DNA of 64,000 nt from a plasmid. Below are positions 28,901 to 31,900 of this stretch, piece by piece. Position numbers: made by a program. The stretch lies in NCBI RefSeq assembly GCF_057098645.1, contig NZ_JBXSPU010000002.1. One strand, 5' to 3'. The stretch's first letter is position 1. The number at the start of each line of letters is the position of its first letter.

Positions 28901-31900
28901 TTGGCGTCCCTAATGGGGTGAAGTACCAGTTTGTCACCCAGCCGCAACCGGAAGAAAGTGATTATTAACGCGTATAGCGCCTGACTGAACAGGAGAGGAA
29001 TAATGGGCCATGTCGATTATACCCGGACACTCCGGGTCCAGCTTTACGATGCCAGCCGCTTTCATGATGGTGCGACGGCGGAACAGGCTGGTGAACTGCA
29101 CACCGTCGCATTCAGTAAACCCGCGATTGCCGATGATATTCAGAAAATTGTCGATACCACTGCCGAGGTGCTCGGTAAACGGTACAGCGTTAACGTATTC
29201 TCGAACTGAGCGCCAGTGAAGGAGGTATTCAGAAAACCTCCTTCTTTCTATATTTTATATCAAAAACCGTCAAATTTAATTCCGCCGCCAGCCATGTTCG
29301 GCAAGCTTAAAATAAATTCATTCTATTTTCCGGGTGCCATTTTTAGTTATTAGAGTAATTTCCAAAATATTTCGAGTCGGGTTGTTTGGGGCAAAGTCCG
29401 TATTGATATAATAAGCTCACATACCTGGAAGGAGTTTTTTATGAATAAGCCTCTGGTTAGCTTCGCGGAGTTATCCGGCAATGCTATTAATGTTGCGCGT
29501 CAGTCTGTTATCGATATGGAAATGGACGCAACCCGGGAAAAGATTGGAAAGGCTCGTTCGTTATTCCACTCAGGTATTCATCGTGCCGTGAATGGCTATC
29601 CGCTGATTCAGTCTGCGGCTAACCAGCTGGCTGTCATTAAGCGACTCCTTGGCGACACGAAGTACCTCGATGCCTGTATTACCGAGAATCTTTGTATGTT
29701 CTCGCCAGAGGGTTATCTGTACCTGTTTATGCAACGCCGCTTCATTAATGAACCCGTGGCCTGATGGACGGGACCTGAACATTATTCCATTTAAAAGGTG
29801 ACATTATGAAACCATTCGGACTTGCCGGAAAACCCCAGCCTGAGCCCTGCGGCTGTTGCTGGTACCACCCGGAAGATTGTCGCTACGCTGCCGCGAAGAC
29901 GCTATATCGCCGCAGCCAGCGTAAGGCTGAGCGCCAGCGTCAGCGTGCGTCTATTACCCGCGCCCTGGCCGAATAACGCCAGCCGTAAAGACTGCTCATG
30001 GCGGATACCTCACCCTGTTATCTGGCGGCAGTATCCGCTGTGAGTGCTTATGCTAACCTACGTCTCCACGTCGTTTAATGATGTATCCCGATATTACCGG
30101 AGTAAAGATGAAACTCAGTCAGCTGGAGGTGGGGATGACCGTCTGGTCACTCTCCCGGACCAAAATGGGAAACACCACCATTAAGACGGTGACTCTTCAT
30201 TCTGTCGTCATCAAGGAAGTACACGATAATCACGTGATTGCCAGCTGGAATGGCAATGCACCGCGTCGTTTCGGGGAAACGGCTATCACTGGTTGGAAAA
30301 AGGAAAAGCCACTGCTGATCCGCGACCGTTCCGGAAGTGCCCGACTGGCGACGCGGGAAGAAAAGGCACGAATTCTGGATACAAAATAGCGCCCGCCCAT
30401 CGTATCGGTCTGCTGTTCTGGCCGTTTCCTCCCCACAGAACCGGAGGGAACCAAAGCCGCTTACTGCATCCCACCTTCTTGCTGTCATTTCCCTCTTTTT
30501 TTAACCGTTTTTTTCCAGCCTTTAACCGACAAAACCACTCCTGCTCACCTGGTATGATCAGCTTGCGTCTTACCATTATTTTTCAGAGAGAGGAGAGGGT
30601 ACATGAATCAAACAGAAACGGGCCCGTCCGGATTTACCGAAACAACGGTCGATGAAGAACGCATAGCCATCAGGGTAATGATTGGTGATGTGGTCGGCCG
30701 CTACCGTAAGCAGGTGCCGCCTGATCGCGTCCAGAAAGCTACTTTTGAAGTGAACGGCGGGCTGCTCATGGCGCTGTTACTGGCTCTGCTGATGCTGGTC
30801 TGTATTATTCAGCGTCTGGCAACTGGCGACCGCCTAATGAGCTTTACCGGAGAGCCTGACGTCCGGGATATTCAGTTTACCCTGATGCTGGTCATCGAGT
30901 TCGCACTTGGCATGGTTGTCTGGTTTCTGATTGCAATGGGGGAGTTTTCCCGCCCCTGGCTCTACCGCCTTACTCCGGCAAAACCCGTCTGGCTTTTTGA
31001 TGAAGTGGAGGATGCAGACCTGGTACTGCTTTCCGGCAATCCCTTTATCAAACGCTGGCTTCACAAGGAAATCTTGAAAATCAGGAGGCTGACGTATACC
31101 CGCCTCGATGAGGAACTGGAGAAAATCGCCCATTACCCGGACAGCCTCCGGCACAGTAGTGTTCGTGCTCACCGTTTGTCACTGATCGCTGGTACGAAAA
31201 CGGACTGATTACAGCCGGAAAGAAGCGGGGGAACAGGCGAGCTGGCGTCGTTGAGTGTTGAGATTCGAATCCGTCTGTTTAATCAGTTATTACGTCAGAC
31301 ACCTGCTGTTACAGCCTGCGAAGCAGCAAAACCTGAAATACTTACTTATTAAATATTTAGGAGAACGATCTGTTCGTTTAAAAGGGGCGGGGTGGTATAA
31401 TAACCTCGGTGCTGGAGGCTTTTGCCCCAGCCAGCAGATTCACTGTTTGACTGTGGTAAAAAGCAGAAAGCCCCGAGTAATTTTTTCAAATTAACCCGAG
31501 GCCCCTGTATGCTAGTCACATTCAGAGTAGCCTCTTACCCGCTTAAATGCAAGGAGAAGAAGGCCATGAAACTGCCGAACCAACCCGTTGTTTTGTGCGT
31601 ATTGATAGTATGTCTTACGCTGTTGATATTCACCTGGCTTACGCGCAATTCGCTCTGCGAACTGAGGCTAAAAGACGGTACACGGGAAGTGTCGGCTGTG
31701 ATGGACTACGAATCCGGTAAGTAGCTGAAAGAGGGGGGGCGACCCCCCTCATTTCAGAATGTGGGCCAGCAAGCTAATGGCACCTTTAGAAAAGGGTTTC
31801 TCCGGTCGGGGAAACCCTTTTTTCCTTTCTATCGTCGGCTAAACCCTTGTTAGTTTGTACATGCAGGAAATAGCTACCCGCCGCCTTGTCGAATTTCAAG

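What the first reader, a model, noticed from the sequence alone, without database searches (positions are those of the whole stretch)
31420..31830. hok-like type I toxin locus with an unusual same-frame upstream ORF
The 52-aa Hok-family toxin is clear. In the classic hok/sok locus the upstream mok frame overlaps hok out of frame; here the upstream reading frame (from 31422, with an internal ATG near 31509) is continuous and in frame with hok. The locus is followed by a G7/C6 hairpin and a second hairpin plus T-run. The antisense RNA gene is not directly identifiable.
Basis: partly seen in the sequence, partly recalled or inferred. Interest (0 to 1): 0.35.

Follow-up and report, generated by a model that had tools for sequence, protein, structure and literature searches.

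The report
Ordinary hok/mok/sok plasmid killer locus
This is a complete, standard hok/sok plasmid-addiction (type I toxin-antitoxin) locus of IncHI2 plasmids, and the "unusual" in-frame upstream reading frame is the normal leader (mok) in the same arrangement as in the classic hokC, srnB and pndA loci.

Summary
The sequence observation is correct. There is a 52-codon Hok ORF (31566-31724), an upstream frame that stays open and in frame from TTG 31422 / ATG 31509, and two downstream hairpins. The interpretation "unusual" is not supported.

ATG 31509 has a GAGG Shine-Dalgarno 7 nt upstream. It aligns exactly with the mok start codons of R1-type hok and of E. coli mokC. It lies 57 nt before the hok ATG. 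The same 57-nt in-frame spacing occurs in annotated mokC/hokC, in srnB (IncF) and in pndA (IncI). R1-type and hokB loci have 58 nt (+1 frame).

I sampled 79 distinct hok loci. Of these, 30 were in-frame fusions, 22 were R1-type +1 overlaps and 17 had short +2 leaders ending at the hok AUG.

This is a by-product of hok nucleotide similarity: it has no SD, a stop codon lies directly before it, and its ATG is part of the Sok -35 box.

The Sok gene can be identified by homology at 31517 to about 31458 on the minus strand, with promoter and terminator. The 5'/3' end-pairing, the anti-SD hairpin, the protective 3' hairpin and the terminator are all present.

The locus is 100% identical in more than 200 sequenced plasmids, where it is annotated as a Hok toxin. 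It is already known and of low interest.

The parts
31393..31401 (+). Predicted hok mRNA promoter: extended -10 (TGgTATAAT). The -35 is weak.
   Evidence: Read from the sequence. It aligns with the TATGAT/TATAAT -10 of the R1-type and hokC loci. It was not picked up by the simple consensus scan.
31408..31823 (+). Predicted full-length hok (mok-hok) mRNA, about 416 nt
   Evidence: The 5' end is inferred from alignment of GGTGCTGG with R1 GGCGCTTG and from the Rfam RF01794 match starting at 31407. The 3' end is inferred from the terminator. MFE is -156.7 kcal/mol, z = -4.6 against shuffles.
31408..31420 (+). tac-equivalent 5' element (GGUGCUGGAGGCU). It pairs with the 3' fbi, and its GAGGCU copies the mok SD region.
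   Evidence: In the MFE fold, 31408-14 pairs with 31778-84. Family-wide compensatory change: GGCGCTTG/CAAGCGCC in 14 loci versus GGTGCTTG/CAGGCACC in 12 loci.
31470..31502 (+). Hairpin in which the upstream C-rich box (ucb/anti-SD, GCCCCG 31470-75) sequesters the mok SD. It is also the Sok target region.
   Evidence: MFE fold. Aligned with the equivalent hairpins of hokC and R1. The roles of the elements are taken from PMC9841398.
31498..31501 (+). Shine-Dalgarno of mok (GAGG), 7 nt before ATG 31509
   Evidence: Sequence. The same GAGG-N7-ATG arrangement is seen in R1-type, hokC and most sampled loci. GAGG is named as the mok SD in R1 in PMC9841398.
31509..31724 (+). mok-equivalent leader frame, in frame with hok (71 codons: [19 protein letters not shown] + Hok)
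   Evidence: ATG 31509 aligns with the R1-type mok ATG and the mokC ATG. It is 57 nt before the hok ATG, as in mokC, srnB and pndA. The arrangement is kept in IncHI2 sister loci at about 85% identity.
31458..31517 (-). Predicted Sok antisense RNA, about 60 nt. It has a short (about 14-nt) 5' leader, a long hairpin and a U-rich tail, and is complementary to the mok SD and AUG.
   Evidence: G31517 aligns with the 5' end of annotated K-12 sokC. The fold is -24.8 kcal/mol, z = -5.1, with a terminator-like hairpin plus UUUCUGCUUUUU. The transcript itself has not been observed.
31524..31552 (-). Predicted Sok promoter: -35 TTGCAT (31552..31547), 17-nt spacer, -10 TACTCT (31529..31524)
   Evidence: Aligned column for column with R1-type TTGCGC/TATCCT, sokC TTGACC/CACTCT and sokB TTGCCG/TAAGAT. 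It scores below the threshold of the simple consensus scan.
31551..31563 (+). hok ribosome-binding region (AAGGAGAAGAAGG)
   Evidence: Identical to the R1-type sequence. It lies on the strand opposite the Sok -35.
31566..31724 (+). hok toxin gene, 52 aa ([52 protein letters not shown])
   Evidence: Pfam PF01848 E=5.4e-19. RefSeq WP_001447600.1 'Hok family toxin' at the identical locus in pMAK1.
31547..31720 (+). +1-frame ORF (57 aa) matching Pfam DUF5431/Mok. Interpreted as a non-functional shadow of the R1-type mok frame.
   Evidence: DUF5431 E=1e-17, profile positions 14-70. TAA at 31544-46 lies directly upstream, there is no SD, and the ATG is part of the Sok -35. The start is not conserved in other in-frame loci.
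31727..31755 (+). G7/C6 stem-loop just after the hok stop. Equivalent to the 3'-terminal protective stem-loop of the processed (truncated) hok mRNA.
   Evidence: MFE helices 31727-30/31752-55 and 31731-38/31743-50. Aligned with the R1-type GGAGGCGGGCGCAGGCCCGCC hairpin. Role taken from PMC9841398.
31778..31784 (+). fbi-equivalent 3' element (UGGCACC), pairing with the mRNA 5' end
   Evidence: MFE fold. It sits 52 nt after the stop codon, the same place as in other hok loci (52-61 nt).
31788..31823 (+). Rho-independent terminator of the hok mRNA (16-bp stem, T6)
   Evidence: Terminator scan and fold.

Best explanation
The region 31393-31823 is an intact hok/mok/sok type I toxin-antitoxin (post-segregational killing) module on the IncHI2 plasmid backbone.

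Inferred mechanism, by homology with R1 hok/sok:
1. A stable mRNA of about 416 nt is made from 31408.
2. It is translationally inert. Its 5' end (tac) pairs with a 3' element (fbi, 31778-84), and the mok SD (31498-31501) is locked in a hairpin with an upstream anti-SD box.
3. Slow 3' trimming back to the G7/C6 hairpin releases the 5' end. The leader then refolds and exposes the mok SD/AUG.
4. A short, unstable antisense RNA, Sok (31517 to about 31458, minus strand), pairs across the mok SD/AUG. This blocks leader translation and triggers RNase III cleavage.
5. When the plasmid is lost, Sok decays. Ribosomes then translate the leader from ATG 31509 through the hok ribosome-binding site and open it. 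The 52-aa Hok membrane toxin is made and kills the cell.

The leader here is in frame with hok, 57 nt upstream, exactly as in mokC/hokC, srnB and pndA. Leader translation therefore also yields a 71-aa N-terminally extended Hok.

Shown here: the presence, homology and predicted folds of all elements. Inferred, not shown: the transcripts, the processing, the translational coupling and the toxicity.
For: Hok ORF matches Pfam HOK_GEF, E=5e-19. The leader matches Rfam RF01794 at 89.1 bits (gathering score 59) over 31407-31568. That model lies on the mRNA-sense strand, as shown on K-12 hokC and hokB.

MAFFT alignment puts the promoter -10, tac, ucb hairpin, GAGG-N7-ATG, hok SD, hok, the post-stop hairpin and the fbi region on their R1-type and hokC counterparts.

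The MFE fold of 31407-31829 pairs 31408-14 with 31778-84 and buries the mok SD; z = -4.6. The tac/fbi pairing shows compensatory C-G to U-A changes across sampled loci.

The Sok region aligns with annotated sokC and sokB including promoter hexamers and folds as hairpin plus U-tail, z = -5.1.

In-frame 57-nt leaders occur in mokC/hokC, mokA/hokA, srnB and pndA, in 30 of 79 sampled loci, and in IncHI2 sister loci at about 85% identity.

The locus is 100% identical in at least 204 plasmid records. The R1 mechanism, and the point that it is translation of mok up to the hok initiation region that matters rather than the Mok product, come from PMC9841398 and PMC4147584.
Against: There is no expression, processing or toxicity data for this IncHI2 allele. 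Both promoters fall below the threshold of the simple sigma-70 consensus scan. The hok promoter has a poor -35, and the Sok hexamers match only 3/6 plus 3/6. MFE folding of 3'-truncated versions did not reproduce the textbook tac/ucb refolding; the 5' end formed a local hairpin instead. The activation step therefore rests on homology alone. Many hok loci elsewhere are decayed, including IS-disrupted IncHI2 copies.
Confidence: 0.9

Rival explanations
1. The functional leader is the out-of-frame +1 ORF starting at ATG 31547 (57 aa, DUF5431/Mok-like), i.e. an R1-type mok with a shortened N-terminus. On this view the in-frame stretch upstream is incidental.
For: Pfam DUF5431 match, E=1e-17, over profile positions 14-70. 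The +1 frame is open across the whole of hok. The TAA-ATG arrangement is conserved in IncHI2 sister loci. PGAP calls a 'DUF5431 family protein' in a related decayed copy.
Against: There is no purine-rich SD upstream (CCUCUUACCCGCUUAA). The ATG is 36 nt downstream of the mok start position shared by the family, and it lies outside the Sok-complementary region (31458-31517), so Sok could not control it. It coincides with the Sok -35 hexamer TTGCAT, which explains its conservation. Other in-frame loci carry AGG or GTG at this position. The +1 frame is also open in many in-frame loci, so the DUF5431 hit follows from hok nucleotide similarity.
Confidence: 0.03
2. The whole 100-codon frame from TTG 31422 is a genuine longer protein: an N-terminally extended Hok-fusion gene rather than a leader plus toxin.
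For: The ORF 31422..31724 is uninterrupted.
Against: TTG 31422 lies about 14 nt from the predicted mRNA 5' end, inside the tac stem, and has no SD. The 29 extra stop-free codons are expected by chance about one time in four. The segment is the conserved structured leader RNA (Rfam hit). The homologous start in all relatives is the GAGG-N7-ATG.
Confidence: 0.01
3. The locus is a structurally intact but functionally silent relic: it hitch-hikes on the IncHI2 backbone and no longer kills.
For: There is no functional data. Promoter hexamers are weak by consensus. hok loci are often inactivated, for example K-12 mokA truncated by IS150 and the IncHI2 copies L128, L129 and L130 disrupted by IS421, by IS150, or with the leader sequence replaced (L130, next to relBE). 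PCR typing in PMC4855149 lists many IncHI2-only plasmids as having 'no' addiction system; those primers probably target R1-type hok.
Against: Every element required in R1 is present and correctly spaced. The sequence is invariant in more than 200 plasmids. A lineage diverged by about 15% keeps the ORFs, the SDs, the 57-nt spacing and tac/fbi complementarity.
Confidence: 0.08

Closest known systems
hokC(gef)/mokC/sokC of E. coli K-12, and the plasmid loci srnB (F) and pndA (R483/IncI)
   Same: The leader ATG with SD lies exactly 57 nt upstream of, and in frame with, the toxin ATG, so the leader and the toxin share a stop codon. The ucb-SD hairpin sequence of the window is closest to hokC. Sok position and promoter layout match annotated sokC.
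   Different: The toxin sequence belongs to the R1-like 'MKLP...' Hok clade rather than to HokC, SrnB or PndA. The locus is plasmid-borne on IncHI2. Unlike K-12 hokC, there is no IS element next to it.
hok/mok/sok (parB) of plasmid R1 and flmA/flmC of F
   Same: The Hok proteins are closely related. The hok SD region AAGGAGAAGAAGGCCATGAA is identical, GCCTCTTAC is conserved, and GAGG-N7-ATG, tac/fbi, the post-stop hairpin, the terminator and the Sok promoter position all correspond.
   Different: R1-type has 58 nt between the mok and hok ATGs, so Mok (70 aa, Pfam DUF5431) reads hok in the +1 frame (positions 116-118 and 174-176 in PMC9841398). The window has a 1-nt shorter spacer (57 nt), so it is in frame. 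The window's leader is also about 15 nt shorter (hok ATG 158 nt versus 173 nt from tac) and about 76% identical overall.
Sister hok loci of other IncHI2 plasmids (e.g. pFJMB80024_1 NZ_AP025802, OU015326)
   Same: Same backbone position (after the WP_000137794-type 201-aa gene). About 85% nucleotide identity, the same 57-nt in-frame leader, and the same tac GGTGCTGG with GGCACC fbi.
   Different: A few amino-acid differences in Hok and in the 19-codon leader (Y/C, P/L, FR/HS), consistent with RNA-level rather than peptide-level constraint on the leader.

Membership tests
hok/sok (Hok/Gef) type I toxin-antitoxin | Small (about 50 aa) Hok/Gef membrane toxin ORF | tested here: met
   PF01848 HOK_GEF, E=5.4e-19, 68 bits against a cutoff of 22.
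hok/sok (Hok/Gef) type I toxin-antitoxin | Structured 5' leader homologous to known hok leaders | tested here: met
   Rfam RF01794, 89.1 bits (gathering score 59), full model 1-157 over 31407-31568. The same model hits the mRNA strand of hokC, hokB and R1-type loci.
hok/sok (Hok/Gef) type I toxin-antitoxin | Leader ORF (mok) with its own SD that is translated across the hok initiation region | tested here: met
   GAGG 31498-31501, then N7, then ATG 31509; the frame is open through the hok SD/ATG. It aligns with the mok and mokC starts. Translation itself was not tested.
hok/sok (Hok/Gef) type I toxin-antitoxin | Antisense Sok gene of about 55-65 nt, complementary to the mok SD/AUG, with a promoter inside the mok-hok junction and a terminator hairpin | tested here: met
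   Homology with annotated sokC and sokB, including -35/-10 and the 5' end. Hairpin plus U-tail fold, z = -5.1. Sequence-level evidence only.
hok/sok (Hok/Gef) type I toxin-antitoxin | Pairing between the 5' end (tac) and 3' end (fbi) of the full-length mRNA | tested here: met
   In the MFE fold, 31408-14 pairs with 31778-84. Covariation across loci occurs at the same positions.
hok/sok (Hok/Gef) type I toxin-antitoxin | Refolding after 3' processing (tac/ucb) that exposes the mok SD | tested here: inconclusive
   The elements are present: tac contains GAGGCU, ucb is AAAGCCCC. However, MFE folds of truncated RNAs gave a local 5' hairpin rather than tac/ucb pairing.
hok/sok (Hok/Gef) type I toxin-antitoxin | Sok-dependent repression, RNase III cleavage, post-segregational killing | not testable with these tools
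   Needs Northern blots or RNA-seq, plus toxicity and plasmid-stability assays.
R1-type Mok (Pfam DUF5431; leader overlapping hok in the +1 frame) | The mok start codon is 58 nt before the hok ATG, so the leader reads hok out of frame for about 55-70 codons | tested here: not met
   The spacing is 57 nt, in frame. The DUF5431 match begins at ATG 31547, which follows a TAA, lacks an SD and lies outside the Sok target.
mokC/srnB/pndA-type in-frame leader | SD+ATG 57 nt upstream of, and in frame with, the toxin ATG, sharing its stop codon | tested here: met
   Window 31509 to 31566 is 57 nt, with a common stop at 31722-24. The layout is identical in mokC/hokC, srnB and pndA.

The most novel reading that the evidence does not exclude
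In in-frame hok loci such as this one, every ribosome that starts at the leader ATG makes a 71-aa Hok carrying a basic 19-residue N-terminal extension. This long isoform might be a functionally distinct product, for example a non-toxic or differently targeted Hok that tunes killing, rather than a mere by-product. If so, the frequent 1-nt switches between in-frame, +1 and +2 leaders within single Hok clades might reflect selection on whether such an isoform is made. Neither the evidence here nor the papers I read test this. A 2025-26 survey explicitly left Mok architecture unanalysed (10.1101/2025.08.07.668861).
Probability: 0.08. Interest if true: 0.35.

Novelty: already known. Interest (0 to 1): 0.1.

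Why it matters
It matters little beyond correct annotation. The locus is one more maintenance (addiction) module helping large IncHI2 multiresistance plasmids persist. RefSeq annotates only the Hok CDS here. The leader ORF, the Sok RNA and the regulatory RNA elements can now be placed to the nucleotide.

The side survey is a useful reminder that the R1 textbook layout (mok out of frame) is only one of three common leader layouts. This fits the published conclusion that it is translation of the leader up to the hok start region, not the Mok peptide, that matters.

Tried and rejected
1. The simple sigma-70 consensus scan found neither the hok nor the Sok promoter. Its only hit, inside hok (31602-31630), was ignored as chance (1 found against 0.5 expected). 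Promoters were placed by alignment instead.
2. An Rfam E-value search gave a weak snR82 snoRNA hit at 32059-32215 (23 bits against a gathering score of 60). I rejected it as noise.
3. Folding 3'-truncated mRNAs to reproduce the tac/ucb activation switch did not give the textbook structure. I do not claim it.
4. I first labelled CUUACC 31534-39 / GGUAAG 31716-21 as ucb/dcb from memory. After reading PMC9841398 I reassigned ucb to the anti-SD box at 31470-75. The 31534-39/31716-21 helix is predicted but I leave it unnamed.
5. I considered the DUF5431 +1 ORF as the real mok and rejected it (see rivals).
6. Literature searches for an explicit published statement on in-frame mok, and on the IncHI2/R478 hok, found only indirect mentions. 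Pedersen & Gerdes 1999 and Poulsen et al. 1991 are not in the searchable library.
7. The 79-locus survey is not unbiased.
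Full report
**What is in the sequence**

The window at 31380-31840 contains a 52-codon ORF, ATG 31566 to TAG 31722-24 ([52 protein letters not shown]). It matches Pfam HOK_GEF at E=5.4e-19.

A G7/C6 hairpin (31731-50, extended to 31727-55) and a 16-bp terminator with a T6 run (31788-31823) follow the stop codon.

It matches Pfam DUF5431, the family built on R1-type Mok, at E=1e-17 over profile positions 14-70.

**Where the locus comes from**

The 651 bp around the locus are 100% identical in at least 204 plasmid records from Salmonella, E. coli, Klebsiella, Citrobacter and others. These are 190-300-kb conjugative MOBH plasmids of the IncHI2 type, such as pMAK1 and pO111_1. 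In them only the 52-aa CDS is annotated, as "type I toxin-antitoxin system Hok family toxin" (WP_001447600.1).

Window 24023-45000 is 100% identical to IncHI2 backbones that carry the MobH relaxase and TraD.

**Identity of the upstream ATG**

MAFFT alignment of the window with an R1/F-type hok locus (L003, annotated mok/FlmC), K-12 hokC, hokB and hokA places ATG 31509, with GAGG 31498-31501 seven nt upstream, exactly on the mok ATG of the R1-type locus and on the mokC ATG.

- In the R1-type locus the mok and hok ATGs are 58 nt apart. The positions 116-118 and 174-176 given in PMC9841398 agree. Mok therefore reads hok in the +1 frame.
- In the window a 1-nt shorter spacer gives 57 nt, so the leader is in frame with hok.

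This is not a new layout:
- RefSeq K-12 annotates mokC 16751..16960 and hokC 16751..16903 with a shared stop and starts 57 nt apart.
- mokA and hokA also share a stop.
- mokB and hokB are 58 nt apart.
- I fetched a pndA locus (IncI) and an srnB locus (IncF). Both have an SD+ATG 57 nt upstream and in frame with the toxin ATG, giving 69- and 68-aa products.

Two of the three classic plasmid systems and the best-known chromosomal one thus share the window's arrangement.

**How common each layout is**

I scanned a species-dereplicated genome collection for the conserved motif GCCTCTTAC-N11-12-CAAGGAGA and classified 79 distinct hok loci, including the references and the window:

| Leader layout | Loci |
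|---|---|
| In-frame fusion (57 or 60 nt) | 30 |
| R1/hokB-type long +1 overlap (58 nt) | 22 |
| Short +2 leader of 19-20 codons, stop overlapping the hok AUG (56 or 59 nt) | 17 |
| +1 leader with an early stop | 3 |
| In frame, but with a stop before hok | 3 |
| No recognisable SD+start | 4 |

All layouts occur within single Hok clades. For example, the "MKLP..." clade contains R1-type, in-frame, +2 and startless loci. Switches by 1-nt indels are therefore frequent.

It still suffices to show that in-frame leaders are ordinary.

IncHI2 sister loci that are only about 85% identical to the window keep the 57-nt in-frame leader, while the leader peptide itself changes (Y/C, P/L, FR/HS). This fits the published view that translation of mok up to the hok initiation region matters, not the Mok product (PMC9841398).

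**The DUF5431 ORF**

The +1 ORF from ATG 31547 is best explained as a shadow of R1-type Mok:
- It follows a TAA (31544-46) directly.
- It has no SD.
- It lies outside the Sok-complementary segment.
- Its ATG is the complement of the last three bases of the Sok -35 hexamer TTGCAT.
- Other in-frame loci carry AGG or GTG at that position.
- The +1 frame is open through hok in many in-frame loci as well.

**The antisense RNA**

Rfam RF01794 ("sok") matches 31407-31568 on the plus strand at 89.1 bits (gathering score 59). On K-12 the same model hits the hokC and hokB mRNA strand, opposite to the annotated sokC and sokB. It is therefore evidence for the hok leader and not directly for Sok.

Aligning the minus strand with the annotated sokC and sokB regions and the R1-type locus gives:
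- a -35 TTGCAT (31552..31547);
- a 17-nt spacer;
- a -10 TACTCT (31529..31524);
- a start at G31517, which aligns with the annotated sokC 5' end.

The RNA of about 60 nt (31517 to about 31458) folds into a short (about 14-nt) 5' leader, a long GC-closed hairpin and UUUCUGCUUUUU (-24.8 kcal/mol, z = -5.1). It is complementary to the mok SD and AUG.

Both promoters are weak by consensus, and the simple scan missed them.

**mRNA architecture**

The predicted transcript starts at about 31408, which is GGTGCTGG aligned to R1 GGCGCTTG. This lies 6 nt after an extended -10, TGgTATAAT (31393-31401). It ends at the terminator at 31823.

Its MFE fold (-156.7 kcal/mol, z = -4.6) does two things:
- it pairs the 5' end, 31408-14, with 31778-84 (UGGCACC);
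- it buries GAGG in a hairpin with GCCCCG 31470-75.

Across the sampled loci the 5' octamer and its 3' partner, 52-61 nt after the stop codon, covary: GGCGCTTG with CAAGCGCC in 14 loci, and GGTGCTTG with CAGGCACC in 12 loci. The window fits with GGTGCTGG and ATGGCACC at +52.

The G7/C6 hairpin corresponds to the terminal stem-loop that protects the processed R1 mRNA (PMC9841398).

Folding truncated RNAs did not reproduce the tac/ucb switch. That step rests on homology only.

**Mechanism and verdict**

The locus most likely works as R1 hok/sok does:
1. An inert, stable full-length mRNA is made.
2. Slow 3' trimming and refolding expose the mok SD.
3. Sok blocks leader translation and promotes RNase III cleavage.
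4. After plasmid loss Sok decays, the leader is translated through the hok ribosome-binding site, and Hok kills the cell (PMC9841398, PMC4147584).

The only difference from R1 is the reading frame of the leader, and that frame is shared with hokC, srnB and pndA.

Nothing here is new in kind, and the exact sequence is already in hundreds of records. Interest is low. The one open question is whether the 71-aa long Hok isoform, which in-frame leaders necessarily produce, has a function of its own.

Noticed in passing
window 1-24022 versus 24023-45000: The IncHI2 backbone match (100%) starts at about 24023. Upstream, Rfam finds IncF/pHK01-type antisense RNAs: AS-pc02 at 5830-6014, AS-traI at 10949-11025 and AS-traG at 20882-20967. 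The window therefore seems to span a junction between F-like transfer DNA and an IncHI2 backbone, i.e. a hybrid or cointegrate plasmid.
   Followed up: partly
window 16576-16692 (-): Rfam ALIL pseudoknot, the IS3-family frameshift element, at 120 bits. This suggests an IS3-family insertion sequence inside the F-like part.
   Followed up: no
L128 (NZ_CP051271), L129 (NZ_CP047541), L130 (NZ_CP118568): Decayed copies of the same IncHI2 hok lineage. IS421 is inserted in the 3' UTR and removes the fbi and terminator (L128). IS150 lies upstream and replaces the promoter, tac and ucb (L129). In L130 the leader is replaced up to the hok SD, next to relBE, and PGAP calls a 'DUF5431 family protein' there.
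   Followed up: partly
L126 603..722 and L128 603..722: RefSeq annotates the sister Hok as a 120-nt CDS (39 aa, WP_223152483.1), although the 52-codon ORF starts at an ATG 39 nt further upstream with the conserved SD. This is probably a start-codon mis-annotation.
   Followed up: partly
79 hok loci from genome contigs (L006-L125) plus references: Three leader layouts coexist and switch within Hok clades: 30 in-frame fusions, 22 long +1 overlaps and 17 short +2 leaders whose stop overlaps the hok AUG. Photorhabdus genomes carry arrays of up to 6 tandem hok loci (L021). A recent Hok survey left Mok unanalysed.
   Followed up: partly
window about 26000-38000 (by identity to L001, pMAK1 146820-159470): The hok locus sits among many small hypothetical genes (DUF957, DUF3085, DUF905) and a ParB-HTH 'DNA-binding protein' (window 32579-33784), with the MobH relaxase and TraD nearby. 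This resembles a plasmid leading region. The orientation relative to oriT was not checked.
   Followed up: no
window 31551-31556 (+) / 31547-31552 (-): The hok Shine-Dalgarno region (CAAGGAG) and the Sok -35 hexamer (TTGCAT; the complement of the SD region reads CTCCTTG) occupy the same bases on opposite strands. Conservation of this motif across the family therefore serves two functions at once.
   Followed up: no
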